DNA of 32,000 nt from Desulfocapsa sulfexigens DSM 10523 (GCF_000341395.1 NC_020304.1:120001-152000); one strand, 5' to 3'. Positions 7,932-31,181 are shown, counted from the stretch's first letter. Numbers and translations: made by a program. The notes: generated by a model not told the origin, from the letters alone.

Positions 7932-9236
7932 ATGCACACACAGGCAGACATTATTAATTTCTGGAGCCACATTCCAGACCTTTCAGACTCGCTTACTGAC
8001 GAAGATGAGGAACCTCCTGACGGTAGAATAAAAACCCTCGACGCAGACGCCTGTCTGCTCAAAATTCCCCCCCCAGCCACTCTTTTTTCTCTACCTTCAG
8101 AAGCATCATCAGTAAGTCCTTCTCAAAGAAACACATTTCGAAAAACCTTTTACCCAGGTGTTACAGCAAAACAGTGGAACAGCTGGCATTGGCAGGTTGC
8201 CAACCGTATCCGTCGTGGAGACCAGCTTGGGCGTTTTTTACAGCTTTCCAAAGACGAAGAACTGGCTGTCAATGGAACGGGAACTACTCTTCCGCTTTCC
8301 ATTACTCCATATTACCTGAGTCTTCTTAACCCTACAGATCCAGAGCATCCACTCCGCCGTTCCGTTGTTCCCACAACAGGTGAATTAACCCAGGGACCCG
8401 GTGAGGCTGACGATCCTCTTGGAGAAGACAACCAGAGTCCTGTGCCGGGTCTTGTTCACCGCTATCCTGACCGTGTTCTTTTTCTGGTACATGATTTTTG
8501 CTCAACCTATTGCCGTTACTGTACGAGATCGCGTGTTGTCGGGCATGGTACCATAAATCCGACAACAGCCAGATTCGAACGAATGCTTGACTACATTCGT
8601 CGTACAAAAACGATCCGTGACGTCCTTATTTCAGGTGGCGACCCACTGTTGCTGTCCGATGATCGCCTTGAATGGCTGTTGAGCAGTCTGCGTAAAATCC
8701 CTCACGTAGAGGTTATTCGCATCGGAACCAAGGTTCCTGCAGTGCTTCCGCAGCGTATCACCCCCGCACTGGTGAAAATGCTTCGCCGCTATCATCCTCT
8801 CTATATGAGCCTGCATTTCATCCATCCAGACGAATGCACTCCGGAAACCACCAAAGCTTGTGCACGCCTTGCAGGGGCAGGGATTCCACTCGGTTCGCAG
8901 ACCGTTCTCCTGCGCGGTATCAACGACACGGCGGAAACGATGAAGAGCTTAATGCACGGGGTGATGAAGATGCGGGTCCGTCCATACTATCTCTATCAGT
9001 GCGACCCCATCACCGGATCGGCTCATTTCAGGACATCGGTAAAGAAAGGACTGGATATCATCCAGGGATTAAGGGGTTTTACCAGTGGTTATGCCATTCC
9101 AACTTATGTCATTGATGCCCCTGGCGGAGGAGGAAAAATCCCCCTTCTACCGGATTCGGTTATAGGGAAAGAGGGCAGTGATCTCCTGCTGCGTAACTAC
9201 GAAGAGAGATGCTTCCGTTATCCCGATGTTGTCTGA
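7932..9236 (+). CDS. kamA: KamA-family radical SAM aminomutase, predicted lysine 2,3-aminomutase (forms beta-lysine)
   Basis: 434 aa, with a strong RBS (GGAG, then 7 nt, then ATG). The radical SAM cluster CSTYCRYCTRS is at 8499-8522. KamA hallmark blocks are WHWQVANRI, ITPYYLSL, SPVPGLVHRYPDRVLFLV, VRPYYLYQCD and YVIDAPGGGGK (the PLP lysine codon is 9135-9137). Confidence 0.9.
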   Translation: MHTQADIINFWSHIPDLSDSLTDEDEEPPDGRIKTLDADACLLKIPPPATLFSLPSEASSVSPSQRNTFRKTFYPGVTAKQWNSWHWQVANRIRRGDQLGRFLQLSKDEELAVNGTGTTLPLSITPYYLSLLNPTDPEHPLRRSVVPTTGELTQGPGEADDPLGEDNQSPVPGLVHRYPDRVLFLVHDFCSTYCRYCTRSRVVGHGTINPTTARFERMLDYIRRTKTIRDVLISGGDPLLLSDDRLEWLLSSLRKIPHVEVIRIGTKVPAVLPQRITPALVKMLRRYHPLYMSLHFIHPDECTPETTKACARLAGAGIPLGSQTVLLRGINDTAETMKSLMHGVMKMRVRPYYLYQCDPITGSAHFRTSVKKGLDIIQGLRGFTSGYAIPTYVIDAPGGGGKIPLLPDSVIGKEGSDLLLRNYEERCFRYPDVV

Positions 9237-9320
9237 CCGGAAAAATCAGTTACAGGCATCTCTGTCAAGTAACAGAGATATTTCCTATTCATATTTACGT
9301 TTCAAACGGGTTCAATACAG

Positions 9321-10307
9321 ATGAAGATAGGATTGACTTTTGATTTACGCTCCGCTTACCTGGAGATGGGATTCTCTGAGCTTGAAACAGCAGAATTCGA
9401 TCGTGACGACACTATTACAGCCATTGAAAATGCGCTGACCACACTGGGTCACAAATGTGAGCGAATCGGTCATGCCAGACAGCTTATGCAGGCCCTTACG
9501 GAGGGAAAACGCTGGGATCTGGTTTTTAATATCGCTGAAGGGATGTACGGCATAGGCCGTGAGGCCCAGATTCCGGCAATTTTGGATGTTTTCAATATTC
9601 CATATACTTTTTCGGATCCACTGGTCATGAGCCTGACTCTTCACAAGGGCATGACCAAACGGGTACTGCGGGATGCAAAAGTTGCCGTGAGTGATTTTCT
9701 GGTTGCTGAAAAGGGGTCTGAAGCTGCAGCAATATCCTTCGGAGGTCCATGGTTCATCAAACCAGTTGCCGAAGGAACGGGAAAGGGAATTGATCCCACC
9801 TCCATCGTCAGAGATAAAGCGGAGCTGCCGGGAGCCGTCGACCATTTGATAGAAAAGTTTAAGCAGCCTGTAATCATTGAACCCTACCTGCCCGGTCGGG
9901 AGTTCACCGTTGGTATAGTAGGAACGGGAAACGTGGCAAAAGTTCTGGGAACCATCGAGGTTGTCCTGCTACAGAACGCTGAGGAAGGTGTCTATTCCTA
10001 TGTCAACAAGGAGGAATGCGAAGAACGGGTGGAGTATCGGCTGGTTCACGGCAGTAAGGATCCCGTTGTCAAGGAGGCTGAAAACACAGCCCTTGAGGCC
10101 TGGCGTGTCCTTGGCTGCAGGGACGGAGGACGCGCGGATCTGCGCTGCAATGCAAACGGAAAACCGCTGTTTATGGAGGTCAACCCTCTTGCCGGTATTC
10201 ATCCGCAACATTCGGATCTTCCCATTCTCTGTACAATGCAAAACATTGATTACCTGAGTCTTGTGGAAATGATACTCACCTCAGCCTCCGCCAGGGTTAC
10301 ACTATGA
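9321..10307 (+). CDS. ATP-grasp ligase, D-alanine--D-alanine ligase family (substrates unknown)
   Basis: 328 aa. Ddl-like motifs are WFIKPVAEGTGKGI, IIEPYLPGREFTVGIVG and GRADLRCNANGKPLFMEVNPLAGI. The stop overlaps the next start (ATGA at 10304-10307). Confidence 0.85.
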   Translation: MKIGLTFDLRSAYLEMGFSELETAEFDRDDTITAIENALTTLGHKCERIGHARQLMQALTEGKRWDLVFNIAEGMYGIGREAQIPAILDVFNIPYTFSDPLVMSLTLHKGMTKRVLRDAKVAVSDFLVAEKGSEAAAISFGGPWFIKPVAEGTGKGIDPTSIVRDKAELPGAVDHLIEKFKQPVIIEPYLPGREFTVGIVGTGNVAKVLGTIEVVLLQNAEEGVYSYVNKEECEERVEYRLVHGSKDPVVKEAENTALEAWRVLGCRDGGRADLRCNANGKPLFMEVNPLAGIHPQHSDLPILCTMQNIDYLSLVEMILTSASARVTL

Positions 10308-11305
10308 ACTTTGCCGTTGTTCATAATTCCCTGGAAGCAAGTGACAGGCCGGATGCGATGGATGTGCTGACGCAGGTGGAGGCAGTAAAAAAAGCACTGA
10401 TCCAGCTTGGGCACCGGGTAAAGATTCTGGACTGTTCTCTGAATCTGGAGAAAATCAGTTGTGATCTCAAAGAGACGAAGACGGAACTGGTATTCAATCT
10501 GGTAGAATCCCTTGGAGGGCATGGTCGTCTGATTCATCTTTTCCCTGCACTGCTTGAGGTTTTACATCTTCCCTGTACAGGATCTTCAGCAGGAGCCATA
10601 TCCCTAAGCTCCAACAAAACTGAGGCCAAGAATTTACTGCGCAGTGCTGGCCTTCCCACCCCTGACTGGGCAGAACTTTTATCAAGTGGTGAAAAAAAAA
10701 TTAGCGGCAGCATTACGATGGATGCCACCTGGATCATAAAATCCCTATGGGAACATGCCTCACTGGGAATGAATGCAGACTCTCTGGTGCAACCCTCCAC
10801 GACAGATGAACTTTTCTCGCTCATGAATACCAAAAAGGACAGTCTGGGTGGTGCCTGCTTTGCCGAGCACTTTATTGACGGCCGGGAATTCAATATCTCC
10901 ATTCTTGCCGGAGAAAATGGCCCGGAAGTACTGCCTCCTGCCGAGATCCTCTTTGACAATTTCACCTCGGAGATGGCCAGGATTGTTGACTATAAGGCCA
11001 AGTGGGACGAATCATCCTTTGCCTACCAGCACACTCCGCGCAGCTTTGATTTCAGCTCTAAAGACAGAGTGATCCTTGAAAATCTAAAGGAGATCTCCCG
11101 GCAATGCTGGTTTCTTTTCAGGCTGAACGGCTATGCCCGGGTCGACTTCCGGGTCGACCCTGAAGGTAAACCCTGGATACTTGAGGTAAATGCCAACCCA
11201 TGTCTCTCACCGGATGCGGGGTTTTCCGCAGCACTGGCACGGGCCGGAATATCCTTCAGTGAAGCAATCCACCGAATTGTAGCAGATGTCCCTGTGACAG
11301 TTTGA
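10304..11305 (+). CDS. ATP-grasp ligase, D-alanine--D-alanine ligase family, paralogue (substrates unknown)
   Basis: 333 aa. Motifs are WIIKSLWEHASLGM, AEHFIDGREFNISILAG and YARVDFRVDPEGKPWILEVNANPCLSPDAG. It is clearly distinct from, but homologous to, the upstream gene. Confidence 0.85.
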   Translation: MNFAVVHNSLEASDRPDAMDVLTQVEAVKKALIQLGHRVKILDCSLNLEKISCDLKETKTELVFNLVESLGGHGRLIHLFPALLEVLHLPCTGSSAGAISLSSNKTEAKNLLRSAGLPTPDWAELLSSGEKKISGSITMDATWIIKSLWEHASLGMNADSLVQPSTTDELFSLMNTKKDSLGGACFAEHFIDGREFNISILAGENGPEVLPPAEILFDNFTSEMARIVDYKAKWDESSFAYQHTPRSFDFSSKDRVILENLKEISRQCWFLFRLNGYARVDFRVDPEGKPWILEVNANPCLSPDAGFSAALARAGISFSEAIHRIVADVPVTV

Positions 11306-11319
11306 AAGGAGTAATATAA

Positions 11320-13578
11320 ATGTTACGCGTACGCCGCATCTACGATGATGCACTGCCAGTCAACAAAGAGGAACTGCGTCAGGTAAAGGAAATCCTGCGT
11401 TCCAGATTCAGTGTTACCGATGAAAAGGAGATTGAATCCATAGGAGAAAAACTGCGAAATCCTTTCAAACAGCGATTCCGTACCATTCTCTTTGTGGCCG
11501 AAAGTGTGAAGGAGCGTGTGGATGGTTTTGCAATCCTGCTCCATGAACCCTTACTCTCGTTCACCTATCTTGACTGGATTGCCATAACGGCCAAGCGTGC
11601 AAGCTCGGGTATTGGCAGTGTGCTCTACGAACGGGTACGGCAGGAATCTGCGGCCCTGAAGGTGAAAGGTCTTTTCTTTGAATGTTTACCGGATTCTGAA
11701 ACCTTCTGTTCTGAACCGGAAATACTTCAGGAAAATAGTGCCAGACTCCGTTTTTATGAACAATACGGTGCCCGTCCCATCGTCAATACGGCCTACGAAA
11801 CCCCCATCAACCCGGATGACAGTTGTGCCCCGTTCCTGGTTTATGACGGTCTCGAGAACAAAAAACCACCCTCAAAGACCTTTGTCCGTAAGGCTGTGCG
11901 TGCTGTACTGGAACGAAAATACAGTGATATATGCTCGCCCGAGTATGTGGATACCGTTGTTTCCTCATTCAATGATGACCCGGTGCAACTTCGTCCATTT
12001 CTCTATGTGAAACCCGAAGTTGCCAGCAACACAGTGGAAAGCAGAAGTACAGAACAGATTGCTGTAGTGGTGAATGACCGTCACGACATTCACCACATCA
12101 ATGACAAGGGATACGTGGAGTCTCCGGTACGTGTCCGGTCAATCCTCAAGGAACTGGACAAAAGTGGATTATTTGTCCAGATAAAACCACGCCACTATGC
12201 CAACCATCATCTCCATCCGGTACACACTTCGGATCTGGTTGGATATCTGAAAAATGCCTGTGCAGACATGCCGGAGGGCAAGTCCCTCTATCCTTACATC
12301 TTCCCCATCCGCAATAAGATGCGACCGCCAAAGGAAAAATCTGTACTTGCCGGATATTACTGTATCGACACGTTCACGCCCATTAACAGAAATGCCTATC
12401 CCGCTGCCCGTCGAGCGGTTGACTGTGCCCTGACTGCAGCAGATGAAGTGCTTAATGGACGAAGAATAGCCTACGCTCTGGTCAGACCTCCAGGCCATCA
12501 CGCTGAAAGTGGCGCTTTTGGAGGATTCTGCTATTTCAACAACAGTGCAGTCGCCGCCCACTACCTGAGCGGATATGGCAGAACCGTAGTGCTTGACATC
12601 GACTATCATCACGGCAACGGTACCCAGGAGATTTTTTACCGCCGCGATGATGTTCTGACCATCTCCATCCACGGTCATCCAAGCTTCGCCTATCCCTATT
12701 TCAGTGGATTTGAAGAAGAAAAAGGTGAAGGCGAAGGCGAGGGTTTCAATCTCAACATCCCCCTTCCTGAATCGGTGGATGGGGTAAAATATCGCAGGGC
12801 GTTGCAGAAAGTTCTGGAAAGGGTCGAGGCTTTTAATCCAGCCTTTCTTGTCGTGGCCTTAGGCCTTGATCCTGCCAAAGGCGACCCGACAGGTACCTGG
12901 AGTCTGCTGGCAAAAGATTTTCAGGAAAACGGTAAAATGATAGGAGCTCTTGGGTTGCCGACCATCGTTATCCAGGAGGGCGGATACAAAACGCGAACCC
13001 TTGGTATCAACGCCATGCGGTTTTTCAAGGGTCTCAGCCTTGCCATTCAGCGATGGGCCGATTCACGCCATCCGGTGAAAAGCAAAATTCAAGGCATTGC
13101 CTACAGATACGAAGTCGAGGAGGCTGATCTGGAACGAGTAGCCAAACTTGCTTCCAGAACAGGCTTCTTCTCTGCGGAGGAAGTGGATGTAGCTGTGGAA
13201 CTGGTGCAGGAGAGACTGGAAAAAGGAGACGCCAGTGGCTATAATTTCATCATAGCAGAACATTACGGTCGCCTTGTCTCCTACACCTGTTATGGCGCAA
13301 TCCCCTGCACCCAGAGCGGACATGATCTCTACTGGATCGTTGTACATCCCGATTATCAGGGAAGAGGCGTTGGTAAAAGCATCCTCAAGGAAACCGAACA
13401 TGCCATCAGAAGTGGCGGCGGCGAGCGGATATACGCAGACACATCCCAACGACTGCAGTACGCCAGCACACGTGCCTTTTACGAAAACAACGGTTACCTC
13501 CAGGTGAGCCTGTTACCCGACTTCTATGGTCCCGATGATGGCAAGGTAGTCTACTGCAAAAATCTGCTGAAACAATAG
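11320..13578 (+). CDS. Tri-domain fusion: GNAT-like domain / HDAC-family (arginase-deacetylase fold) amidohydrolase / GNAT acetyltransferase
   Basis: 752 aa, with an AAAGGAG RBS. The middle domain carries the full HDAC/acetylpolyamine-amidohydrolase catalytic set: RPPGHHA, LDIDYHHGNGTQ, GEGEGEGFNLNIPLP, VVALGLDPAKGDP and IQEGGY. The C-terminal domain has the canonical GNAT motif A, IVVHPDYQGRGVGKSIL...FYENNGY. The N-terminal ~230 aa have a weaker GNAT-like motif (WIAITAKRASSGIGSVLYERV). Confidence 0.88.
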   Translation: MLRVRRIYDDALPVNKEELRQVKEILRSRFSVTDEKEIESIGEKLRNPFKQRFRTILFVAESVKERVDGFAILLHEPLLSFTYLDWIAITAKRASSGIGSVLYERVRQESAALKVKGLFFECLPDSETFCSEPEILQENSARLRFYEQYGARPIVNTAYETPINPDDSCAPFLVYDGLENKKPPSKTFVRKAVRAVLERKYSDICSPEYVDTVVSSFNDDPVQLRPFLYVKPEVASNTVESRSTEQIAVVVNDRHDIHHINDKGYVESPVRVRSILKELDKSGLFVQIKPRHYANHHLHPVHTSDLVGYLKNACADMPEGKSLYPYIFPIRNKMRPPKEKSVLAGYYCIDTFTPINRNAYPAARRAVDCALTAADEVLNGRRIAYALVRPPGHHAESGAFGGFCYFNNSAVAAHYLSGYGRTVVLDIDYHHGNGTQEIFYRRDDVLTISIHGHPSFAYPYFSGFEEEKGEGEGEGFNLNIPLPESVDGVKYRRALQKVLERVEAFNPAFLVVALGLDPAKGDPTGTWSLLAKDFQENGKMIGALGLPTIVIQEGGYKTRTLGINAMRFFKGLSLAIQRWADSRHPVKSKIQGIAYRYEVEEADLERVAKLASRTGFFSAEEVDVAVELVQERLEKGDASGYNFIIAEHYGRLVSYTCYGAIPCTQSGHDLYWIVVHPDYQGRGVGKSILKETEHAIRSGGGERIYADTSQRLQYASTRAFYENNGYLQVSLLPDFYGPDDGKVVYCKNLLKQ

Positions 13579-13756
13579 GCGAAGGGGATATGGTTGTCCC
13601 CAGGCTACCATACCTCCTGACCATATAATTATTGCCAGTGTTTTTTGAATCAGGTAGGGTCATGTCAGGTAAACATGTATTTTCATGGAGTTTCAATCCG
13701 TTGTAAGGATACCTGTACTCAATCCTTCTTCAACTCTCAACACGAGGAAAAGTCTG

Positions 13757-15187: not shown

Positions 15188-15213
15188 ACGATTTATATAG
15201 AGGAGAAATAAAG

Positions 15214-16212
15214 ATGCTTAGCCGTGTAGCCAACTCAATTTACTGGATGTGTCGATATATCGAACGGGCGGAAAATGTAGCCCGCTTTATCAGTGTCAAC
15301 CTCAACCTGTTACTCGATATGCCCTCAGAAAAGGGCAAACACTGGGAACCGCTGGTACTGACAACAGGTGATCAGGAACTGTTCGAAAAAAAGTATCAGA
15401 ACTATACCAAAGAGGCGGTAATCGAATTCCTTGCCTTTGACCGGAGTTACCCCAATTCCATTATCAGCTCCCTTGCGGGAGCAAGGGAAAACGGTCGGTC
15501 CATCCGTGAAATCATCTCTTCTGAAATGTGGGAACATTTAAACAATTTCTATCTGGAACTGACCGATGTAAAAAGCCAGACCATGGCTCTTGAGGATCCG
15601 CACCGCTTTTTCAAAATCATTCAGATGCGCAGTCACCTGTTCACCGGACTGCTGGACTCGACCATGAGCCATGGGGAAGCCTGGAACTTTGCCCGCATCG
15701 GTATGATGCTGGAACGGGCAGACAAAACCTCCAGAATCCTTGACGTCAAATACTTTATGCTGTTGCCGCACCCGGATCTGGTGAACAGTCCGATAGATAA
15801 CATTCAGTGGACATCGGTGCTCAAATCTGCCAGTGCTTTTGAAATGTATCGTAAGGAACATCATCGGATAACCCCGCATAAGGTGGCAAGCTTCCTGATT
15901 TTTGACAGCCAGTTTCCTCGTTCCATCCGCCATTGTATTTCCAAGGCCGATATCTGTCTGCATAGGATTGCCGGCTCACCGGAGGGGTCCGCAAGCAATC
16001 TTGCCGAGAAAAAGCTGGGCCGTCTCAAAGCTGATCTTGAATACACTGACATTGATGAAGTGGTCAAATCTGGTATGCATGAGTACCTGGACGATCTGCA
16101 GAGTCGGATCAACCAGATTGATGAAGTCATCGGAACCACATTCTTCAATCTCAGGCCCCTGATCGATGTATCAACAAACGACCAGCAGCAGTCCACGACC
16201 ACCAACAACTGA
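15214..16212 (+). CDS. Alpha-E domain protein (COG2307-type)
   Basis: 332 aa, with an AGGAG RBS. The N-terminus MLSRVANSIYWMCRYIERAENVARF is the hallmark opening of alpha-E domain proteins. The rest appears all-helical, including GEAWNFARIGMMLERADKTSRILDVKY. Confidence 0.87.
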   Translation: MLSRVANSIYWMCRYIERAENVARFISVNLNLLLDMPSEKGKHWEPLVLTTGDQELFEKKYQNYTKEAVIEFLAFDRSYPNSIISSLAGARENGRSIREIISSEMWEHLNNFYLELTDVKSQTMALEDPHRFFKIIQMRSHLFTGLLDSTMSHGEAWNFARIGMMLERADKTSRILDVKYFMLLPHPDLVNSPIDNIQWTSVLKSASAFEMYRKEHHRITPHKVASFLIFDSQFPRSIRHCISKADICLHRIAGSPEGSASNLAEKKLGRLKADLEYTDIDEVVKSGMHEYLDDLQSRINQIDEVIGTTFFNLRPLIDVSTNDQQQSTTTNN

Positions 16213-16290
16213 ATGAAAAAGTAATCAATAAACATGGGGCCGCGATATACCCGGCAACCATGCTCTTGATTCACAATAAAAGGAATACTC

Positions 16291-19200
16291 ATGGGAATCC
16301 ATGTTGCCCTGAACCACAAGACCTCATACCATTACGACAAGCGTATCACCCTCTCTCCTCAGATTGTCCGTCTGCGCCCCGCTCCTCACTGCCGGACCCC
16401 CATTCTGAGCTACTCCATGACGGTAACTCCTGAAAAACATTTTATCAACTGGCAGCAGGATCCATTCAGTAACTACCTGGGCCGCCTGGTATTTCCCGAC
16501 AAAACAGACATTTTTGAGGTGGAGATCGATCTGGTGGCGGAGATGATTATCATCAACCCCTTTGATTATTTCCTGGAGCCTGACGCCGAATCATTTCCCT
16601 TTATTTATGAACCGGCTCTCAAACTGGACCTTGCTCCCTATCTGGCCAGAGAAAAGGCTGGGAAAAAGCTCCAGGAGTACATAAACAAGATAGAGCTCAA
16701 ACCAAGACAGACCATCGATTTCCTGGTGGATCTGAACATGAAGCTGAGTCATGATATCAGCTATCTTATCCGCATGGAACCGAACGTGCAAAGCTGTGAA
16801 AAGACCCTCACTCTTGGCAGCGGCTCATGCAGGGATTCTGCCTGGTTGCTGGTCAATATCCTGCGTCATCTCGGTCTGGCTGCCCGTTTCGTTTCCGGTT
16901 ACCTGATCCAGTTGAAACAGGATATCAAATCCCTGGACGGTCCATCGGGAACAGAAGTTGACTTCACCGATCTCCATGCCTGGACAGAGGTTTACATTCC
17001 AGGGGCTGGTTGGGTGGGTATGGATCCAACCTCCGGACTTTTCGCCGGAGAAGGACACATTCCCCTGGCCTGCTCGCCTGAACCACAGAGTGCAGCTCCC
17101 ATCACCGGAGGCCTCGAATTATGTGAAGTTGACTTCAGTCACACCATGAGTGTGACAAGAATTCACGAAGCACCCCGCTCCACCCGCCCCTACCCCGAAG
17201 AAGTCTGGAGAGAGATCGTTGAATTGGGAGAACAGGTTGATCAGAAACTGACCGATGGCGATGTCCGTCTGACCATGGGAGGGGAACCCACATTTGTTTC
17301 AATCGACGATATGGATGGCGCTCAATGGAACACCGACGCCCTTGGAGAAGAAAAACTGGAGCTTTCCGGAATTCTCATTAAGGAACTGCGAAAGAAATGG
17401 GCTCCCGGAGGATTTCTCCATCATGGCCAGGGCAAATGGTATCCGGGAGAGCCCCTGCCCCGCTGGGCCATGGGCTGCTATTGGCGAAAAGACGGTAAAC
17501 CTGTCTGGAAGGATGACCAGTGGCTGGCCGATGCCTCCAAAGATTATGGTTTTGATGCTGGAGATGCCAAACTTTTCATCGAGACACTGGCAGACAATCT
17601 GAGGGTGAGTCAGCGCTATATACGGGAAAGTTACGAAGACATCTTCTATTACCTGTACAAAGAGCAACGGTTGCCGGTAAATGTGGATCCTGCAGATCCA
17701 AAGCTTGACAGTGCTCTGGAACGCGCTCATATGGTACGAGCCTTTCAGCGAGGACTGGGATCAGTGGTCGGCTACGTCCTCCCTCTGCAGCATGGCTCCT
17801 GGAAGAGTGGCCCCTGGCCTTTCCGCGATGGACGGATGTTCCTTGTACCCGGTGATTCTCCTGCCGGCCTGCGCCTCCCCCTGGCCTCTCTGCCATGGGT
17901 AGCCAAAGAGGACATCCAGGAGGGGCACCCCCTGGATCCAATGATAGACAGAGAGCCCTTACCCGAACTGCATGAAAATCAGAAAGTTGTGGAAGGACAG
18001 GCTGTAGCAGTGACAGGTGACAATGTTCATATTCAGCCTGAACCCTATGCTGACCCGGAGCCCGTCAAGGGAGAATCTGCTGCCTGGCTGGTACGCACAG
18101 CCCTCTGCGTGCAGCCCCGGGAAGGACGCCTCTATATATTTATGCCACCGGTGGAATCTCTGGAGGGATACCTTGAGCTGGTGTCCATCGTCGAAGCAAC
18201 TGCCGCACAGACTCAGTTGCCGGTAATCATCGAAGGATATACACCGCCCTTTGACCCGCGCCTCCAGAATCTGAAAATCACCCCGGATCCCGGAGTCATT
18301 GAAGTGAATATCCAGCCCATGCACAGCTGGCAGGAGCTGGTTGAATGTACCACCACCCTTTACGACACTGCCCGAGAGGCACGTCTGGGTACTGAAAAGT
18401 TCATGATTGACGGCCGACACACCGGCACCGGTGGTGGTAATCATATCGTCATCGGTGGATCCACCCCTGGAGACAGCCCGTTTCTACGAAGGCCGGATCT
18501 GCTTCGCAGTTTTGTCACCTTCTGGAATAATCATCCGTCCCTCTCTTTTCTTTTTTCCGGACTCTTTATCGGCCCCACCAGCCAGCAGCCGCGAATTGAT
18601 GAGGCCCGCCATGACAGCCTCTATGAACTGGAAATCGCCTTTGCTGAACTGGACAGACAGACAGGTTCGGATCAGCCCTGCCCTCCCTGGCTGGTGGATC
18701 GAATTTTCCGCCACCTGCTGGTGGACGTTACCGGTAACACCCACCGGGCCGAATTCTGTATCGATAAGCTCTATTCACCGGACAGTGCTAGCGGAAGACT
18801 GGGCCTCCTTGAATTTCGCGCCTTTGAGATGCCTCCCCACGCCCGTATGAGCCTCGCCCAGCAGCTGCTGTTGCGTAGCTTTGTTGCCTGGTTCTGGGAG
18901 ACGCCCTATCGTCAGAGTCTGGTGCACTGGGGAACACGGCTCCATGATCGCTTTATGCTGCCCCAGCCGGTACGGGATGATTTTGCTGATGTCCTGAATA
19001 TTCTGAACCGGGCTGGCTTCCCTGTCTCGATGGATTTTTTCCATCCTCATTTCGAATTTCGCTTTCCCATTTACGGCAAAGTAACGGTTCAGGGCATGGA
19101 GATTGAACTGCGCCAGGCTCTTGAGCCCTGGCACGTATTGGGCGAAGAACCAGGCGGTGGTGGCACTGTCCGCTACGTTGACGGCTCACTGGAGAGGCTC

Positions 19201-19611
19201 CAGGTCAAAGTCTCCGGTATGACAGGAGAACGCTATATTATCACCTGCAACGGTCGTCGAGTTCCTCTGCAGCCAACCACAGTTGAAGGCGTATTTGTTG
19301 CCGGTATCCGCTTCCGTGCCGGAAAACCTCCATCCTGCCTCCATCCTACCATTGATGTTCATGCTCCCCTCACCATTGATCTCTTCGACACCTGGTCCAA
19401 CAGGTCCGTGGGTGGCTGTACCTATCATGTGGAGCACCCAGGCGGACGAAACTCTGAAACACTTTCTGTCAACTCCTATGAGGCGGAAGGACGGCGTAAC
19501 GCTCGTTTCGTTCCCAACCGGCACAGTCCCGTTCGCCCGACAGCTATTCCTGCAGATGAAATGAACCCATCTTTTCCATATACTCTTGATTTGCGCCGCC
19601 ACATCGGATAA
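16291..19611 (+). CDS. Large transglutaminase-like cysteine peptidase fused to a DUF2126-type predicted (circularly permuted COOH-NH2 ligase) amidoligase domain
   Basis: 1106 aa. The N-terminal Bact_transglu_N-like region reads HVALNHKTSYHYDKRITLSPQIVRLRP. The transglutaminase core has an intact Cys-His-Asp triad (GSGSCRDSAWLLV, FTDLHAWTEVYIPGAGWVGMDPTSG). The ~800-aa C-terminal extension matches my recollection of the COG4196/DUF2126 family. Confidence 0.88.
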   Translation: MGIHVALNHKTSYHYDKRITLSPQIVRLRPAPHCRTPILSYSMTVTPEKHFINWQQDPFSNYLGRLVFPDKTDIFEVEIDLVAEMIIINPFDYFLEPDAESFPFIYEPALKLDLAPYLAREKAGKKLQEYINKIELKPRQTIDFLVDLNMKLSHDISYLIRMEPNVQSCEKTLTLGSGSCRDSAWLLVNILRHLGLAARFVSGYLIQLKQDIKSLDGPSGTEVDFTDLHAWTEVYIPGAGWVGMDPTSGLFAGEGHIPLACSPEPQSAAPITGGLELCEVDFSHTMSVTRIHEAPRSTRPYPEEVWREIVELGEQVDQKLTDGDVRLTMGGEPTFVSIDDMDGAQWNTDALGEEKLELSGILIKELRKKWAPGGFLHHGQGKWYPGEPLPRWAMGCYWRKDGKPVWKDDQWLADASKDYGFDAGDAKLFIETLADNLRVSQRYIRESYEDIFYYLYKEQRLPVNVDPADPKLDSALERAHMVRAFQRGLGSVVGYVLPLQHGSWKSGPWPFRDGRMFLVPGDSPAGLRLPLASLPWVAKEDIQEGHPLDPMIDREPLPELHENQKVVEGQAVAVTGDNVHIQPEPYADPEPVKGESAAWLVRTALCVQPREGRLYIFMPPVESLEGYLELVSIVEATAAQTQLPVIIEGYTPPFDPRLQNLKITPDPGVIEVNIQPMHSWQELVECTTTLYDTAREARLGTEKFMIDGRHTGTGGGNHIVIGGSTPGDSPFLRRPDLLRSFVTFWNNHPSLSFLFSGLFIGPTSQQPRIDEARHDSLYELEIAFAELDRQTGSDQPCPPWLVDRIFRHLLVDVTGNTHRAEFCIDKLYSPDSASGRLGLLEFRAFEMPPHARMSLAQQLLLRSFVAWFWETPYRQSLVHWGTRLHDRFMLPQPVRDDFADVLNILNRAGFPVSMDFFHPHFEFRFPIYGKVTVQGMEIELRQALEPWHVLGEEPGGGGTVRYVDGSLERLQVKVSGMTGERYIITCNGRRVPLQPTTVEGVFVAGIRFRAGKPPSCLHPTIDVHAPLTIDLFDTWSNRSVGGCTYHVEHPGGRNSETLSVNSYEAEGRRNARFVPNRHSPVRPTAIPADEMNPSFPYTLDLRRHIG

Positions 19612-19669
19612 CTATGCCAGATCAAACAAGGTGTACTACTATTAAAGAAACAACGAGACCTCCAGCTGT

Positions 19670-22198
19670 ATGAGCACTGCAGACCTGAATAATCCCGCGT
19701 GCCCATGGCCTGCTGCATCTGTGTCCCTGTTTGACGCGGTTACGCTGCCACCTCAGGCCTATTGCGAAGCCTTTTCCTCCCCGGCAAGTGCCCGTGAACA
19801 CTGGCGCCCCCTGCTCTCCGCATTAGATGCCAGGGGAAAACAGGAGCTCTCCCAACTCCAGGATCGCGTCAAACGCAAGTGCCACGAACATGGTGCAACC
19901 TTCAACCCTTTTGACGACCCCACCGAGCAGGAAACCCCCTGGGCTCTGGATATAATCCCGCTTCCCTTTGCCGCAGAGGAATGGGCAAATCTCGAAACAG
20001 GACTTATCCAACGGGCCCGCCTCCTGGATCAGATCCTCGCAGACACCTACGGGGCACAAAACCTGTTGAAGAATGGACAGATGCCAGCCGAACTGGTCTT
20101 TGCCAATCCGCATTTCCTGCACCAGTGTCATGGTATTCGTCCGGCCGCTGGCAAGTTCCTGACCTATTACGCGGCAGACCTTTACAGAGGAGTCGACGGA
20201 TGCTTCCGGGTGCTGCGAGATTACGGTGCAAACCCCATCGGACTCGGTTATGCCCTTGAGAACAGGATCGTCAGTTCACATTTTCTTTCAGACACCTATC
20301 ACAACAATCAGATCCACAGGCTGGCTCCCTTCTTCCAAACCTTTCACCGCAATCTTATCCAACGTGCCGCCCTGCACCGTGAAGATCACGGTATCGTGCT
20401 GCTCTCTCCCGGCCCAGACAGTCTCATCTACTTTGAGCATGCCCTGCTCTCACGTTACCTTGGGTACCCTCTGGTGGAAGGCCAGGATCTGACCATGCGG
20501 AACGGAAAGCTGTTTCTCAAAAAACTGGACGGCCTCGAGGAGGTGGAAGCCATCTTCCGCCACACCGGAGACAACAACAGCGATCCCTTCGCCCTACGGC
20601 GTAAATCAGCAGACGGTGTGGCAGGACTTATCCAGGTTTCCCGTGAGAATAACGTCGATATCGTCAACCCCATCGGCAGTGGATTTATTGATACACCCGT
20701 TCTTCCTGTCTTTCTGCCCAATTTTTGTCGTGAACTACTGAAAGAAGAGCTACTCCTGAAAAGTCATCCTGCCTGGTGGTGTGGGACCCCGGATGGGCGC
20801 AATCATGTTATGGCAAATATGAACACCTTGAATGTCACTTCTGCCATGACCCGATCGACAACTGCTACACGTCCGAGCGACCTGATGAATAATATTGCCG
20901 CCAGCCCCCACGCCTTTATGGCACAGGAACAGGTTTATCCTTCAATGGTTCCCGTCTGGGACAACGGCCGTGTCAATTCCCATTACTCTCTTTTACGGGT
21001 ATTTGCCTGTGCAACGGATCAGGGATTTGCTTTCATGCCTGGAGGGCTGGCCATCACCGCCGCGAATGTAAAGACACTCACCAGTGACCGCCCGGAGCGA
21101 CAGCAAAGCAAGGACGTCTGGGTGTTGTCTGACAAACCGGTTGAGCCTGTGAGCCTTATGAGCAGTCTCCAACAGGTGAGTGAGTTCAGTCGCAGCAGTA
21201 ATCTTCCGAGCCGGGTGGCTGATCATCTGCTCTGGCTGGGACGCTATCTGGAGCGGGCCGAAGGGCTGACACGACTTCTTCTCTCCGTCTTTCGCCGGCT
21301 CTCAGGAGAATTTTCCCCACAAGATATCCCCGAATTACCGTTTCTCCTTAATCTTCTCCGTGAAAAAGATATCATTCCCAAGGCTCCCACTGACAGCAGC
21401 GGTATCCCTCTCTATCGTGAACTCCTCGCCCAACTGAATGGTGCCATGTATCAAAGCGATAAGAATCAGAGTGTTGCCACGGTTCTGAAACAGGTGCAGA
21501 AGGCAGCTCGGCATGTACGGGATCGCCTCTCTCCTGATTCCTGGCGGGTAATCAACAGACTGGAGACCTTTCCGCTGAATTCAGGCAGTGATCCTCTGGA
21601 AGTTCTTGATGACACCCTGTTCAATCTGAGCGCCTTCAGCGGACTGGCTATGGAAAGTATGACCCGTGGGCTGGGATGGCGCTTCATGGACATAGGCCGT
21701 CGCCTGGAACGGGCCATGAATCAGGCCTCCCTTGTACGCATCGGCCTCCCTCAGGTATGCAGAGCATCGGGAACTGCCCTGGAAGCGATGCTTGAGGTGT
21801 CAGACAGTATTATGACATACCGGGCGCGCTACCAGATGGCCTTTCAACTGGCTCCCGTACTGGATTTACTGCTCATGGATGAAACCAATCCTAAATCCCT
21901 GGCTTTTCAGTTCAGCCAGCTGGCTGCACACGTGGAGCATCTTCCCCGGCAGAGCGAACGCAGCTTTTCCAGTCCGGAGGAGCGCATTGTCCTTGAAATA
22001 CTAACCACCGTACGTCTGCTCGATCTCACGGGGATGCTCTGCACAACAAAAGAGAGTAAAAAAAGTTCACTTGCAGCATCTCTTGAATCCATGGAGACCC
22101 TTCTTAAGGAGTTTGCTCAGCAGGTCAGCGCTCACTACCTGAGCCGGGTTCCGACCACCCCCCATTTCTCCATCATACCCGGCAACCGTAAGCCATGA
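19670..22198 (+). CDS. Fusion of a circularly permuted ATP-grasp-like domain (nucleotide-binding motifs degenerate) and an alpha-E domain
   Basis: 842 aa. The N-terminal half is co-linear with the 13757 gene (LDIIPLPF.., RVLRDYGANPIGLGYALENR, LLSPGPDSLIYFEHALL, QSKDVWVL). The C-terminal half starts with the alpha-E hallmark SRVADHLLWLGRYLERAEGLTRLL. The stop overlaps the next start (ATGA at 22195-22198). Confidence 0.87.
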   Translation: MSTADLNNPACPWPAASVSLFDAVTLPPQAYCEAFSSPASAREHWRPLLSALDARGKQELSQLQDRVKRKCHEHGATFNPFDDPTEQETPWALDIIPLPFAAEEWANLETGLIQRARLLDQILADTYGAQNLLKNGQMPAELVFANPHFLHQCHGIRPAAGKFLTYYAADLYRGVDGCFRVLRDYGANPIGLGYALENRIVSSHFLSDTYHNNQIHRLAPFFQTFHRNLIQRAALHREDHGIVLLSPGPDSLIYFEHALLSRYLGYPLVEGQDLTMRNGKLFLKKLDGLEEVEAIFRHTGDNNSDPFALRRKSADGVAGLIQVSRENNVDIVNPIGSGFIDTPVLPVFLPNFCRELLKEELLLKSHPAWWCGTPDGRNHVMANMNTLNVTSAMTRSTTATRPSDLMNNIAASPHAFMAQEQVYPSMVPVWDNGRVNSHYSLLRVFACATDQGFAFMPGGLAITAANVKTLTSDRPERQQSKDVWVLSDKPVEPVSLMSSLQQVSEFSRSSNLPSRVADHLLWLGRYLERAEGLTRLLLSVFRRLSGEFSPQDIPELPFLLNLLREKDIIPKAPTDSSGIPLYRELLAQLNGAMYQSDKNQSVATVLKQVQKAARHVRDRLSPDSWRVINRLETFPLNSGSDPLEVLDDTLFNLSAFSGLAMESMTRGLGWRFMDIGRRLERAMNQASLVRIGLPQVCRASGTALEAMLEVSDSIMTYRARYQMAFQLAPVLDLLLMDETNPKSLAFQFSQLAAHVEHLPRQSERSFSSPEERIVLEILTTVRLLDLTGMLCTTKESKKSSLAASLESMETLLKEFAQQVSAHYLSRVPTTPHFSIIPGNRKP

Positions 22199-23067
22199 GA
22201 TACCGCGTAAGCCATAAAACAACCTACCGCTATTCGGAACCTGCCTCCCTTTCTCAAAACGAGGTATTTCTCCATCCCCGTGAAATTGAAACTCAACGGG
22301 TAATCGAAAGCAGACTGGCCATCGATCCAAAACCGCAATACCAGCACCGTCGTACAGATTACTTTGGCAATATCGCGCAGGTATTCATGGTACAGCATCC
22401 CCACAACGAGCTGACCATGACCGCAACCAGCATTGTGGAAACAGCCCTTCCCGTCACGCCATTAAGCACTCCTCCCTGGGAAAGCGTCGTCCAGCGACTG
22501 GCTGCCCCCGTGCGCCAGTTACCGGACCTTGAAGCCTACCAGTTCGTCTTTGCCAGCCCTCTGATCAGCGTCGCTCCCGGGGTTATGGAATATGCCAGGC
22601 CTTCCTTCCCGCCGGGTACTCCCGTACTGGACGGAGCCATGAACCTGATGGGACGAATATTTAAAGAATTCAGCTACGACACCTCGGCCACCACCGTGGA
22701 TACCACCGTAGAACAACTGCTGGCAGAACGAAAAGGGGTCTGTCAGGATTTTGCCCATTTCGCCATCAGCTGTCTACGATCCATGGGACTGGCGGCACGC
22801 TATGTGAGCGGCTACCTGGAAACCATGCCACCACCGGGTAAACCCAAGATGATCGGAGCCGATGAATCCCACGCCTGGCTCTCTCTCTACATTCCGGACA
22901 CAGGCTGGGTAGACCTGGACCCCACGAACAACATTATTCCAGGTGAAAATCATATCGTTCTTGCCTGGGGGCGGGATTATGGTGATGTCACCCCCGTGAA
23001 AGGAGTGGTAATGGGGGGCGGAATTCACACCCTTTCCCTGATGGTGGATGTTGCCGTACACTCCTGA
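22195..23067 (+). CDS. Transglutaminase-like cysteine peptidase (COG1305-type)
   Basis: 290 aa. The Bact_transglu_N-like start is MRYRVSHKTTYRYSEPASLSQNEVFLHPRE. The catalytic triad context is KGVCQDFAHFAISCLRSMGLAARYVSGY and ESHAWLSLYIPDTGWVDLDPTN. Confidence 0.9.
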   Translation: MRYRVSHKTTYRYSEPASLSQNEVFLHPREIETQRVIESRLAIDPKPQYQHRRTDYFGNIAQVFMVQHPHNELTMTATSIVETALPVTPLSTPPWESVVQRLAAPVRQLPDLEAYQFVFASPLISVAPGVMEYARPSFPPGTPVLDGAMNLMGRIFKEFSYDTSATTVDTTVEQLLAERKGVCQDFAHFAISCLRSMGLAARYVSGYLETMPPPGKPKMIGADESHAWLSLYIPDTGWVDLDPTNNIIPGENHIVLAWGRDYGDVTPVKGVVMGGGIHTLSLMVDVAVHS

Positions 23068-28637: not shown

Positions 28638-28647
28638 AACACCTCGC

Positions 28648-31166: not shown

Positions 31167-31181
31167 ATCATTCTTTTATAT

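What the first reader, a model, noticed from the sequence alone, without database searches (positions are those of the whole stretch)
7932..23067. 15-kb single-strand supercluster joins a beta-lysine-forming aminomutase to five predicted amide-bond ligase domains, two transglutaminase-like peptidases and an acetyl on/off enzyme
Nine ORFs lie on the + strand with junctions of -4, -4, 14, 26, 58, 78, 84 and 178 nt.

Together they encode:
- one KamA-type radical SAM aminomutase
- two Ddl-like ATP-grasp ligases
- two circularly permuted ATP-grasp domains (one looks degenerate)
- one DUF2126-type predicted amidoligase
- two transglutaminase-like Cys-His-Asp peptidase domains
- two alpha-E domains
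- one HDAC-type deacetylase
- one or two GNAT domains

No transporter, regulator or obvious substrate gene is interspersed. The right-hand five genes belong to a family that comparative genomics predicted to be a peptide synthesis/modification (possibly protein-tagging) system. As I recall, this was Iyer, Abhiman, Burroughs and Aravind, Mol BioSyst 2009. I know of no biochemical characterisation.

The left-hand four genes would provide a non-proteinogenic beta-amino acid plus ligation and protect/deprotect chemistry. My hypothesis is that this is one pathway that builds, trims and (de)acetylates a beta-lysine-containing peptide, polyamide or protein tag. That combination is not a described system as far as I know.
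Basis: partly seen in the sequence, partly recalled or inferred. Interest (0 to 1): 0.85.

Follow-up and report, generated by a model that had tools for sequence, protein, structure and literature searches.

The report
Two unrelated gene modules sitting side-by-side
The nine genes and their domains are real, but they form two independently inherited modules that abut only in this lineage: a widespread, apparently undescribed beta-lysine/ligase/acetyl on-off cassette, and a known-but-uncharacterised ATP-grasp/transglutaminase-like peptidase system.

Summary
Nine co-directional ORFs lie at 7932-23067 with the stated junctions and domains.

- I anchored on the deacetylase gene and examined 80 species-level genome loci. 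Of these, 56 carry the KamA / Ddl-like x2 / GNAT-HDAC / GNAT cassette, in at least 7 gene orders and at least 6 phyla.
- None of the 38 cassette loci with 5 kb or more downstream is followed by the right-hand module.
- The closest relatives (80% identity) have a mechanosensitive channel there instead.
- I then anchored on the TGase-DUF2126 gene. None of 80 metagenome loci has KamA, and none has a cassette-type Ddl-like gene.
- GC3 steps from 0.46-0.52 to 0.56-0.60 at the boundary.

Module A probably makes and unmakes an N-acetylated beta-lysine-based small molecule. Three points support this:
- The lysine-binding Asp pair is kept.
- The deacetylase is closest to acetylpolyamine amidohydrolases.
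- MscS, CdaA and MarC genes recur as neighbours.

Module B is the CP-ATP-grasp / alpha-E / transglutaminase-like system; its function is unknown.

One residual signal remains. Deacetylase orthologues lie within 10 kb of a module-B-type cluster in 4 of about 93 loci, all Desulfobacterota. A facultative link is therefore not excluded.

The parts
7932..9236 (+). Module A, g1: KamA-family radical SAM lysine 2,3-aminomutase (434 aa). It has a 72-aa N-terminal extension and lacks the C-terminal Zn-Cys domain.
   Evidence: - Pfam Radical_SAM + LAM_C.
- TIGR00238 scores 345 bits, above its 199 cutoff. The AblA equivalog model scores 475, below its 525 cutoff.
- The alignment to 2A5H has E=3e-136. The CxxxCxxC motif, D293, D330 and K337 are conserved; C268 is replaced by T.
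9321..10307 (+). Module A, g2: Ddl-like ATP-grasp ligase (328 aa). It is not a bona fide D-Ala-D-Ala ligase.
   Evidence: - Pfam Dala_Dala_lig_C, E=6e-23.
- The best NCBIfam Ddl model scores 151 bits, below its 243 cutoff.
- The only PDB relatives are Ddl, and the R..D...E.N catalytic motif is kept.
- Syntenic with KamA and HDAC in 51-56 of 80 species loci.
10304..11305 (+). Module A, g3: second Ddl-like ATP-grasp ligase (333 aa). It is a paralogue of g2 at about 24-28% identity.
   Evidence: - Pfam Dala_Dala_lig_C, E=1.5e-18, plus a weak TTL hit.
- PDB 8evy_B, E=7e-18, with the catalytic motif kept.
- The two copies are conserved as a tandem pair across loci.
11320..13578 (+). Module A, g4: tri-domain protein. 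The domains are an N-terminal GNAT fold (about 1-236), an acetylpolyamine-amidohydrolase-like HDAC (about 266-572) and a C-terminal GNAT (about 592-746).
   Evidence: - Pfam hits.
- PDB: APAH 6phr E=1e-74 and 3q9b; the GNAT 2r7h (DDE_3044) E=2e-34.
- The N-terminal model matches GNAT folds.
- The HH dyad, DxDxH, D517 and GGY are invariant in 16 homologues.
- In other lineages the C-terminal GNAT is a separate gene.
13579..13756 (.). Boundary between the two modules: a 178-nt spacer.
   Evidence: - No terminator-like site was found here.
- Folding z-score is 0.07, with one imperfect hairpin just after the g4 stop and no adjacent U-run.
- Little upstream conservation with the closest right-module relatives.
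- GC3 steps up here.
13757..15187 (+). Module B, g5: circularly permuted ATP-grasp amidoligase (476 aa), the catalytically conserved copy.
   Evidence: - Pfam CP_ATPgrasp_2, E=7e-167.
- PDB 3n6x, 'putative glutathionylspermidine synthase', E=1.5e-164. This is a structural-genomics entry.
- The start codon is fixed by alignment.
15214..16212 (+). Module B, g6: alpha-E domain protein (332 aa).
   Evidence: Pfam Alpha-E, E=9e-104. It is paired with g5 in relatives.
16291..19611 (+). Module B, g7: transglutaminase-like Cys peptidase fused to a DUF2126 putative amidoligase (1106 aa).
   Evidence: - Pfam Bact_transglu_N, Transglut_core and DUF2126 (1328 bits).
- C180/H229/D245 are invariant.
19670..22198 (+). 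Module B, g8: divergent (probably inactive) CP-ATP-grasp fused to alpha-E (842 aa).
   Evidence: Pfam hits. The g8 orthologue group keeps 48 of 128 g5-invariant residues, and the putative Mg/catalytic motifs are lost.
22195..23067 (+). Module B, g9: stand-alone transglutaminase-like Cys-His-Asp peptidase (290 aa).
   Evidence: Pfam Bact_transglu_N + Transglut_core. The motifs GVCQDF, SHAW and DLDPT are present.

Best explanation
Window 7932-23067 contains two self-contained gene modules. They are inherited independently and abut only in this Desulfobulbales-like lineage.

**Module A (7932-13578)**
- It is a widely conserved cassette.
- A KamA-type aminomutase converts L-lysine to beta-lysine. 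The family membership and the lysine-binding residues are shown; the product is inferred.
- Two Ddl-like ATP-grasp ligases form one or two amide bonds involving beta-lysine (inferred).
- The GNAT / APAH-like deacetylase / GNAT protein acetylates free amino groups and can hydrolyse the acetamide again (inferred).
- The likely product is a charge-neutralised, N-acetylated beta-lysine-based small molecule whose pool can be built up and dismantled.
- It is most likely an osmotic or cation-homeostasis solute related to N-epsilon-acetyl-beta-lysine.

**Module B (13757-23067)**
- It is the CP-ATP-grasp / alpha-E / transglutaminase-like peptidase / DUF2126 system.
- It presumably couples ATP-dependent amide ligation with Cys-peptidase-type hydrolysis on an unknown substrate.

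**Relationship between the modules**
- Their adjacency here may allow read-through transcription.
- It is not a conserved functional coupling.
For: **Independence of the two modules**
- 56 of 80 species-level loci anchored on g4 carry the cassette, and 51 have both KamA and Ddl. None of the 38 with 5 kb or more downstream is followed by g5-g9.
- The only conserved neighbours of the deacetylase are KamA, the two Ddl-like genes and the GNAT. They occur in at least 7 different orders, including divergent ones.
- In the 80%-identity relatives, g4 is followed by an MscS-family channel (L085, L087), or the cassette has a rearranged gene order with no module B in either flank (L084). Five further relatives lack module B: L168 (80% identity, contig ends at g4) and L169, L171, L172, L173 (69-70%).
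- 0 of 80 metagenome loci anchored on g7 have KamA, a cassette-type Ddl or a cassette-type deacetylase.
- The closest module-B relatives (75-88% identity) keep the g5-g9 order with unrelated upstream genes.
- GC3 is 0.455-0.515 for g1-g4 and 0.56-0.60 for g5-g9.

**Chemistry of module A**
- D293, D330, K337 and the CxxxCxxC motif are conserved against 2A5H.
- The HDAC domain is closest to acetylpolyamine amidohydrolases.
- Both ligases keep the catalytic motifs.
- There are two GNAT folds.

**Physiology of module A**
- MscS channels abut the cassette in 3 loci in two arrangements.
- CdaA is a neighbour in 4 loci, and MgtE, CorA or MgtC in several.
- A MarC-family membrane protein sits inside the cassette in three Dehalococcoidia-class MAGs.
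- Many hosts are marine or saline taxa.
- An MscS-type gene also precedes the kamA-ablB osmolyte operon of Ca. Methanoperedens (PMC11337218).
Against: - No intrinsic terminator was detected in the 178-nt spacer, so co-transcription in this strain is possible.
- Deacetylase orthologues lie within 10 kb of module-B-type genes in 4 of about 93 loci:
  - the window itself;
  - L170, where g5/g6 orthologues (72% and 62% identity) lie 3.4 kb upstream on the opposite strand;
  - L068, where the deacetylase lies directly upstream of g7-g8-g9-g5-g6;
  - L069, about 7 kb away.

  My rough chance expectation is about 0.3.
- The product of module A is unknown.
- The role of the two ligases is not explained by the known two-enzyme N-acetyl-beta-lysine pathway.
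- No AblB orthologue is present.
- The osmotic and ion-homeostasis neighbours are confined mostly to Desulfobacterota and could reflect shared ancestry.
Confidence: 0.72

Rival explanations
1. All nine genes form one operon and one pathway. It builds (KamA plus five ligase domains), trims (two transglutaminase-like peptidases) and (de)acetylates a beta-lysine-containing peptide, polyamide or protein tag.
For: - Nine co-directional genes have short junctions, and no terminator-like site lies in the g4-g5 spacer.
- The chemistry is thematically compatible.
- The same arrangement appears on three near-identical metagenome contigs.
Against: - Linkage is absent from the 80%-identity relatives and from all other cassette loci with enough flank.
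- It is absent from 80 of 80 right-module loci.
- There is a compositional step at the boundary.
- Each module is complete and conserved on its own.
Confidence: 0.08
2. A facultative partial link. In some Desulfobacterota the GNAT-APAH-like deacetylase, rather than the whole cassette, works with the CP-ATP-grasp system. For example, it could unmask an acetylated amine that module B then ligates or hydrolyses.
For: - In L068 a g4 orthologue lacks a fused C-terminal GNAT and has no KamA or Ddl in the flank. It sits directly upstream of g7-g8-g9-g5-g6 on the same strand, preceded by two GNAT genes and an M20 deacylase.
- L068 and L069 branch among cassette-linked orthologues, not as a separate paralogue clade.
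- L170 has g5/g6 orthologues 3.4 kb from the cassette.
- 4 of about 93 loci show proximity, against a rough chance expectation of about 0.3.
- The g5 fold family is annotated as glutathionylspermidine-synthase-like, which is an amine-amide ligase.
Against: - No cassette-type deacetylase was identified in any of the 80 right-module loci. There was only an unrelated 350-aa HDAC 4 kb away in L089 and an 80-residue HDAC fragment at a contig end in L156.
- In L069 and L170 unrelated genes intervene.
- The chance estimate is post hoc and not phylogenetically corrected.
- Comparable counts are seen for CdaA, MgtE and CorA.
Confidence: 0.13
3. Module A is not a solute pathway. It is either a catabolic route for lysine through acetylated beta-lysine intermediates, or a protein-modification system (EF-P-like beta-lysylation or RimK/TTL-like tailing with reversible acetylation).
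For: - KamA plus acetyltransferase plus deacetylase recurs in beta-lysine catabolism (B. subtilis yod operon, Pseudomonas B4). This point rests on my own knowledge and was not checked here.
- g3 gives weak TTL and ATPgrasp_ST hits.
- The N-terminal GNAT model resembles GCN5.
- RimK, RimB and MATCAP genes lie near the cassette in L085-L087.
Against: - No aminotransferase, CoA-transferase or thiolase is conserved with the cassette.
- The EpmB model scores far below its cutoff (245 vs 369 bits), and no EpmA-like ligase is present.
- The deacetylase is closest to small-molecule acetylpolyamine amidohydrolases.
- No conserved target or carrier gene, and no conserved small ORF of at least 70 aa, was found.
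- MscS and MarC neighbours point to a diffusible product.
Confidence: 0.07

Closest known systems
AblA/AblB pathway for the osmolyte N-epsilon-acetyl-beta-lysine (methanogens, Ca. Methanoperedens, some bacteria)
   Same: - A KamA-type lysine 2,3-aminomutase is paired with a GNAT acetyltransferase.
- The best NCBIfam hit of g1 is the AblA model.
- An MscS-type channel gene lies next to the operon in some lineages (PMC11337218; L085, L087 and L171).
   Different: - g1 scores below the AblA equivalog cutoff (475 vs 525).
- No AblB-model hit was found for either GNAT.
- The cassette additionally always carries two Ddl-like ATP-grasp ligases, a second GNAT fold and an APAH-like deacetylase. None of these is part of the two-enzyme pathway.
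CP-ATP-grasp / alpha-E / transglutaminase-like peptidase / DUF2126 systems. These were predicted by Iyer, Abhiman, Burroughs & Aravind, Mol Biosyst 2009;5:1636 (the citation is confirmed; the paper is not held).
   Same: - g5-g9 have exactly this domain set.
- The same gene order occurs in the closest relatives.
   Different: Nothing distinguishes g5-g9 from the family, apart from their position next to module A in this strain.
Acetylpolyamine amidohydrolases (APAH; PDB 6phr, 3q9b) and polyamine acetylation/deacetylation cycles
   Same: - The g4 HDAC domain is most similar to APAH (E=1e-74) and has all Zn and catalytic residues.
- It is fused to GNAT domains, which suggests an acetyl on/off cycle on an aliphatic amine.
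   Different: - Fusion to two GNAT folds.
- Obligate synteny with a beta-lysine-forming aminomutase and two ATP-grasp ligases.
- The substrate is unknown.
NAGGN (N-acetylglutaminylglutamine amide) biosynthesis: GNAT plus an ATP-grasp dipeptide ligase making an acetyl-capped dipeptide osmolyte. This comparison rests on my own knowledge and was not checked here.
   Same: The logic is the same: an ATP-grasp ligation plus N-acetyl capping yields an uncharged peptide solute.
   Different: - The enzyme families and architecture differ.
- NAGGN biosynthesis has no aminomutase and no deacetylase.
- No homology was tested.
D-alanine-D-alanine ligase (Ddl/Van)
   Same: g2 and g3 share the fold and the catalytic R/D/E/N motif with Ddl.
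   Different: - All Ddl/Van NCBIfam models score far below their cutoffs.
- The cassette occurs in MAGs labelled Dehalococcoidales/Dehalococcoidaceae, a group that I recall includes wall-less members. That point is my own knowledge.
- The genes always lie with KamA, not with mur or fts genes.

Membership tests
KamA-family radical SAM aminomutase (lysine-specific) | CxxxCxxC radical SAM cluster motif, the PLP-binding Lys (K337 in 2A5H) and a family HMM score above cutoff | tested here: met
   TIGR00238 scores 345.5 bits, above its 199.2 cutoff. The alignment to 2A5H shows C-S-T-Y-C-R-Y-C and K337 conserved.
KamA-family radical SAM aminomutase (lysine-specific) | The Asp pair that binds the lysine epsilon-ammonium (D293 and D330 in 2A5H). 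As I recall, these are replaced in glutamate 2,3-aminomutase. | tested here: met
   Both Asp residues are conserved in the alignment. The rule linking them to specificity comes from my own knowledge of the literature.
AblA/AblB N-epsilon-acetyl-beta-lysine pathway | AblA equivalog-level score (TIGR03820 cutoff 525.4) | tested here: not met
   The score is 475.2 bits, below the cutoff.
AblA/AblB N-epsilon-acetyl-beta-lysine pathway | An AblB-type beta-lysine N6-acetyltransferase next to the aminomutase | tested here: not met
   No AblB-named family is among the six NCBIfam hits for g4 at E<=1e-3. The best GNAT hits are RimI-like. A GNAT is present but is not an AblB orthologue by this test.
D-Ala-D-Ala ligase (Ddl) | A score above the curated Ddl subfamily or equivalog cutoffs | tested here: not met
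   g2 scores 150.8 and g3 scores 116.1, against a cutoff of 243 for PRK01372.
ATP-grasp ligase (active) | The Mg/ATP and acyl-phosphate motif (R...D...E.N) in the C-terminal domain | tested here: met
   g2 has 'gradlr...mevn' and g3 has 'arvdfr...levn', each aligned to the Ddl motif.
Class II HDAC / acetylpolyamine amidohydrolase | The HH dyad, the D-x-D-x-H and D Zn ligands, and the catalytic Tyr in GGY | tested here: met
   H393, H394, D426, D428, H430, D517 and Y556 are invariant in 16 homologues. PF00850 has E=1.5e-76. The closest PDB entries are APAHs.
CP-ATP-grasp / alpha-E / transglutaminase-like system (Iyer et al. 2009) | Co-occurrence of PF04174/PF14403, PF04168 and PF01841 (with or without PF09899) in one gene cluster | tested here: met
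   Pfam hits for g5-g9. The same cluster occurs in L088-L091, L108 and other loci.
CP-ATP-grasp / alpha-E / transglutaminase-like system (Iyer et al. 2009) | Peptide-ligase and peptidase activity on a defined substrate | not testable with these tools
   No characterised homologue was found. 3n6x is a structural-genomics entry, and the literature searches found none.
Single nine-gene 'supercluster' as one conserved system | Linkage of the KamA/Ddl/HDAC-GNAT genes with the CP-ATP-grasp module in phylogenetically distant genomes | tested here: not met
   No cassette locus shows direct linkage (none of the 38 with >=5 kb downstream is followed by g5-g9; only L069 has a distant partial module), and 0 of 80 right-module loci. 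Only loose or partial proximity is seen in L170, L068 and L069.

The most novel reading that the evidence does not exclude
In this organism, and perhaps in some other Desulfobacterota, the beta-lysine cassette and the CP-ATP-grasp / transglutaminase-like system are functionally coupled through the GNAT-APAH-like deacetylase. The long-uncharacterised module B would then act on an (acetyl-)beta-lysine-derived amine, which would give the first experimental handle on its substrate. Independently of that, module A would make an undescribed beta-lysine-containing, N-acetylated peptide-like solute used by many marine and saline anaerobes.
Probability: 0.12. Interest if true: 0.8.

Novelty: new variant of a known kind. 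Interest (0 to 1): 0.4.

Why it matters
The claimed 15-kb 'supercluster' should not be treated as a new biosynthetic system, so heterologous expression of the whole block is not the best-justified experiment.

The useful outcome is the definition of module A. It is a tightly conserved cassette of 4-5 genes: a lysine 2,3-aminomutase, two Ddl-like ATP-grasp ligases, two GNAT folds and an APAH-like deacetylase.
- The cassette was found in 56 of the 80 best species-level genome loci. Its deacetylase family had at least 589 confirmed matches in that scan.
- It spans Desulfobacterota, Alpha- and Gammaproteobacteria, Planctomycetota, Chloroflexota, Myxococcota and Bacteroidota/Ignavibacteria.
- I could find no description of it.

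If it makes a beta-lysine-based solute, it would extend the N-acetyl-beta-lysine paradigm beyond the two-enzyme archaeal pathway. It would also explain part of the osmoadaptation of abundant sediment anaerobes.

The rare juxtapositions with module B are cheap leads for a system that has lacked any substrate hypothesis since 2009.

Tried and rejected
- **Exact-sequence look-up of g4.** It found nothing. The 100% cluster representative P0001 then gave the same-strain contigs.
- **Literature searches.** I searched for the left cassette with aminomutase + ATP-grasp + deacetylase/osmo/Desulfo terms, Dde_304x locus tags and 2R7H. None found a relevant paper. One search term was rejected for its syntax. 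A DUF2126/alpha-E search was swamped by unrelated 'alpha-E...' words.
- **Iyer et al. 2009.** The paper could not be read. What I say about its predictions rests on the Pfam descriptions and my recollection.
- **Rfam scan.** I scanned the window and five relatives for riboswitches (for example lysine or c-di-AMP) upstream of the cassette or in the g4-g5 spacer. It found only tRNA and rRNA. An earlier call exceeded the size limit.
- **The g4-g5 spacer.** Terminator/promoter scanning and RNA folding were uninformative.
- **Upstream of g5.** The alignment with the closest module-B relatives showed no conserved leader beyond the SD and start codon.
- **Upstream TPR, cysE-like and cysK genes.** I considered whether they belong to the unit and rejected this. 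cysK passes its equivalog cutoff, and none of the three is conserved next to the cassette elsewhere.
- **HDAC-only loci as a separate paralogue family.** I considered this and rejected it on the NJ tree.
- **A peptidoglycan role for the Ddl-like genes.** I judged this unlikely. All Ddl models score below their cutoffs. The cassette is also present in Dehalococcoidales MAGs.


Full report
**Observation**

The ORF scan reproduces the nine + strand ORFs between 7932 and 23067.
- For g5 the longest ORF starts at 13685. Alignment with the closest relative (L088) places the start at 13757, behind an SD-like GAGGAA.
- Pfam and NCBIfam confirm every domain call.

The vaguer statements also check out.
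- The g4 N-terminus is a second GNAT fold. Pfam gives a weak hit (E=3.8e-4). An AlphaFold model with pLDDT 81 matches GCN5, AAC(6') and 2R7H with Foldseek probability 1.0.
- The ATP-grasp domain of g8 is degenerate. The g8 orthologue group keeps 48 of the 128 residues that are invariant among 22 g5 orthologues, and the window's g8 has lost the LEDNxR, ADDK and NSSQGGG motifs.
- Both transglutaminase-like domains keep Cys-His-Asp.

The flanks are unrelated.
- Upstream on the same strand lie a TPR protein, a cysE-like gene and cysK. cysK scores 435 bits against a cutoff of 351.
- Downstream on the opposite strand lie two hybrid histidine kinases.

**Is the 15-kb block one unit? Survey from the left side**

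I aligned 16 homologues of g4 and scanned one genome per GTDB species with 10-kb flanks. That flank is wide enough to see the whole block.
- At least 589 stretches encode a relative, and the best 80 were returned.
- tblastn with all window proteins and an all-against-all ORF clustering give a clear picture.
- The only genes that recur next to the deacetylase are KamA (48 loci), the pair of Ddl-like ligases (54 loci) and the C-terminal GNAT. The GNAT is either fused or a separate gene of about 167 aa.
- 56 of 80 loci show the cassette, and 51 have both KamA and Ddl.

The order varies:
- KamA-Ddl-Ddl-[GNAT-HDAC-GNAT]
- KamA-Ddl-Ddl-[GNAT-HDAC]-GNAT
- KamA-Ddl-Ddl-GNAT-[GNAT-HDAC]
- Ddl-Ddl-GNAT-KamA-[GNAT-HDAC]
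- KamA-[GNAT-HDAC]-Ddl-Ddl-GNAT
- [GNAT-HDAC-GNAT]-Ddl-Ddl-KamA
- two divergent layouts

The hosts are Desulfobacterota, Alpha- and Gammaproteobacteria, Planctomycetota, Dehalococcoidales, a Polyangiaceae MAG, Bacteroidales and Ignavibacteriales. Linkage that persists through so many rearrangements is the classical signature of a functional unit.

None of the 38 cassette loci with 5 kb or more downstream is followed by g5-g9. The nearest relatives are decisive.
- At 80% g4 identity, L085 and L087 have an MscS-family channel after g4.
- L084 (also 80%) has a reordered cassette and no module B.
- L168 (also 80%) has a contig that ends at g4, so its downstream side is uninformative.
- L169, L171, L172 and L173 (69-70% identity) also lack module B.
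- Only L001-L003, which are 98-100% identical to the window, share the arrangement.

**Survey from the right side**

I scanned metagenome contigs with a g7 alignment. This returned 80 loci at 56-79% identity.
- The closest loci (L088-L091) keep the g5-g6-g7-g8-g9 order at 63-88% identity per gene.
- None of the 80 has KamA, and none has a cassette-type Ddl-like gene. L116 has one distant Ddl-like gene at 27% identity.
- Upstream of g5, L088 has two DUF1538 genes on the other strand.
- L089 has an ordinary 350-aa HDAC 4 kb away, behind three unrelated ORFs.
- L156 has an 80-residue HDAC fragment at its contig end.

In the window, GC3 is 0.455-0.515 for g1-g4, like the housekeeping genes upstream. 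It is 0.56-0.60 for all five right-hand genes.

That is what the data show.

**Residual signal**

Four of about 93 distinct loci anchored on the deacetylase have module-B-type genes within 10 kb.
- The window itself.
- L170, a Desulfobulbaceae MAG with 70% g4 identity. Orthologues of g5 (72%) and g6 (62%) lie 3.4 kb upstream of KamA on the other strand, separated by cdaA and an MFS gene.
- L068, a Geopsychrobacteraceae MAG. A GNAT-HDAC orthologue without KamA or Ddl sits directly upstream of g7-g8-g9-g5-g6. It is preceded by a GNAT-HATPase gene, a GNAT gene and an M20 peptidase gene.
- L069, with a partial module about 7 kb away behind unrelated genes.

On an NJ tree the L068 and L069 proteins branch among cassette-linked orthologues.

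My back-of-envelope chance expectation is about 0.3. It assumes about 30 kb of 'near' space per module in a genome of about 4.5 Mb, with roughly half of genomes carrying a module. So the count is nominally high. Three cautions apply:
- The estimate is post hoc.
- All the cases are Desulfobacterota.
- Similar counts are seen for cdaA, mgtE and corA.

I therefore keep a facultative link, most plausibly through the deacetylase, as a minority possibility.

**What module A probably does**

- g1 aligns to Clostridium subterminale lysine 2,3-aminomutase (2A5H) at E=3e-136. The Fe-S motif, the PLP lysine and the two aspartates that hold the lysine epsilon-ammonium are all conserved. The C-terminal Zn-Cys region is missing.
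- g1 passes the KamA-family model but not the AblA, glutamate, arginine or EpmB equivalog cutoffs.
- g2 and g3 are far below all Ddl/Van cutoffs but keep the catalytic motif.
- The g4 HDAC domain is closest to acetylpolyamine amidohydrolases (6phr, 1e-74). Its catalytic residues are invariant in the family.
- The g4 C-terminal GNAT matches the structural-genomics protein DDE_3044 (2R7H, 2e-34).
- No carrier, target or precursor gene is conserved.

Membrane and osmotic or ion-homeostasis genes recur around the cassette in different positions:
- MscS channels, downstream in L085 and L087 and upstream in L171.
- CdaA in four loci.
- MgtE, CorA or MgtC in several loci.
- A MarC-family protein inserted inside the cassette in three Dehalococcoidia-class MAGs.

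Many hosts are marine, saline or soda-lake taxa. The N-acetyl-beta-lysine operon of Ca. Methanoperedens is likewise preceded by an MscS-type gene (PMC11337218).

My best reading is as follows.
- Beta-lysine is made.
- It is joined by one or two amide bonds.
- It is N-acetylated to remove charge.
- It can be deacetylated for turnover.
- The product would be a solute related to, but more elaborate than, N-epsilon-acetyl-beta-lysine.

The steps beyond 'KamA-family, lysine-type active site' are inference. I could not find any paper on this cassette.

**What module B is**

- g5-g9 are a textbook instance of the CP-ATP-grasp / alpha-E / transglutaminase-like / DUF2126 clusters. Iyer et al. 2009 drew attention to these (the citation is verified; the paper is not held).
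- The only solved homologue is the uncharacterised 3n6x.
- Papers that mention the COGs treat them as unknown.
- Nothing here adds to its function, except that g8's ligase domain is probably inactive.

**Verdict**

- The sub-module assignments are right.
- The unifying 'one pathway' hypothesis is not supported.
- Module B is already known as a predicted system.
- Module A is a real, widely conserved and apparently undescribed variant of beta-lysine/acetyl-beta-lysine metabolism. It is the part worth following up.

Noticed in passing
L068:5623-21269: In a Geopsychrobacteraceae MAG, a GNAT-HATPase fusion, a GNAT, an M20 peptidase and a GNAT-HDAC orthologue of g4 lie in one co-directional run. 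They are directly followed by g7-g8-g9-g5-g6 orthologues. The flank has no KamA or Ddl.
   Followed up: partly
L170:124-7324: In a Desulfobulbaceae MAG, g5 (72%) and g6 (62%) orthologues lie on the minus strand 3.4 kb upstream of the KamA cassette. A diadenylate cyclase (CdaA) gene and an MFS transporter gene separate them.
   Followed up: partly
L085:12687-15029; L087:5358-7718; L171:4052-6307: MscS-family mechanosensitive channels of about 750-790 aa abut the beta-lysine cassette. They lie downstream in two loci and upstream in one. MgtE or CorA genes lie alongside in L085 and L171.
   Followed up: partly
L026:10489-11091; L041:595-1197; L043:4111-4722: In these three Dehalococcoidia-class MAGs a MarC-family membrane protein gene is inserted inside the cassette, between the GNAT and GNAT-HDAC genes. 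Four related MAGs (L026, L034, L042, L051) have a small MarR/HTH gene upstream of KamA.
   Followed up: partly
L169:216-5101; L085:15076-20286; L084:17745-21688: Other amide-ligase and peptidase genes cluster near the cassette in its closest relatives.
- L169: a C39-like peptidase, an RLAN/RimK-like ATP-grasp, GCS2 and FGase.
- L085: an FGase-MATCAP fusion, a LysW-like zinc ribbon and RimK (with RimB in the near-identical contig L086).
- L084: an ATP-grasp plus a FemAB-like Acetyltransf_6, with Orn/Arg decarboxylase and AdoMet decarboxylase genes.
   Followed up: no
window 7932-8147: KamA carries an N-terminal extension of about 72 aa with no Pfam hit. It aligns full-length only in the 80%-identity relatives L085 and L168; most other cassette KamA hits cover only about 0.82-0.92 of g1.
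   Followed up: no
window 5875-7760 and 4865-4940: A cysE-like serine acetyltransferase (below its equivalog cutoff, with a long N-terminus) overlaps cysK by 4 nt. Both lie directly upstream of the cassette on the same strand. A tRNA-Cys(GCA) gene lies just upstream of the TPR gene.
   Followed up: partly
window 23124-27898 (-): Two tandem hybrid histidine kinases (dCache/PAS-HisKA-HATPase-REC) converge on the end of module B. Hybrid kinases also lie near the cassette in about 9 other loci. They are very common in these taxa, so this may mean nothing.
   Followed up: partly
window 28089-31991 (-): A co-directional run of four genes: a PEMT/ICMT-like methyltransferase, a CrtD/phytoene-desaturase-like flavoprotein, a radical SAM/SPASM protein and a BchE/HpnJ-like radical SAM protein that is cut by the window end. 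This may be a lipid or isoprenoid modification cluster.
   Followed up: no
window 13583-13618: An imperfect hairpin lies immediately after the g4 stop codon. The U-run comes only about 27 nt later, so it is not a canonical terminator, and the spacer as a whole folds no better than shuffled sequence.
   Followed up: yes
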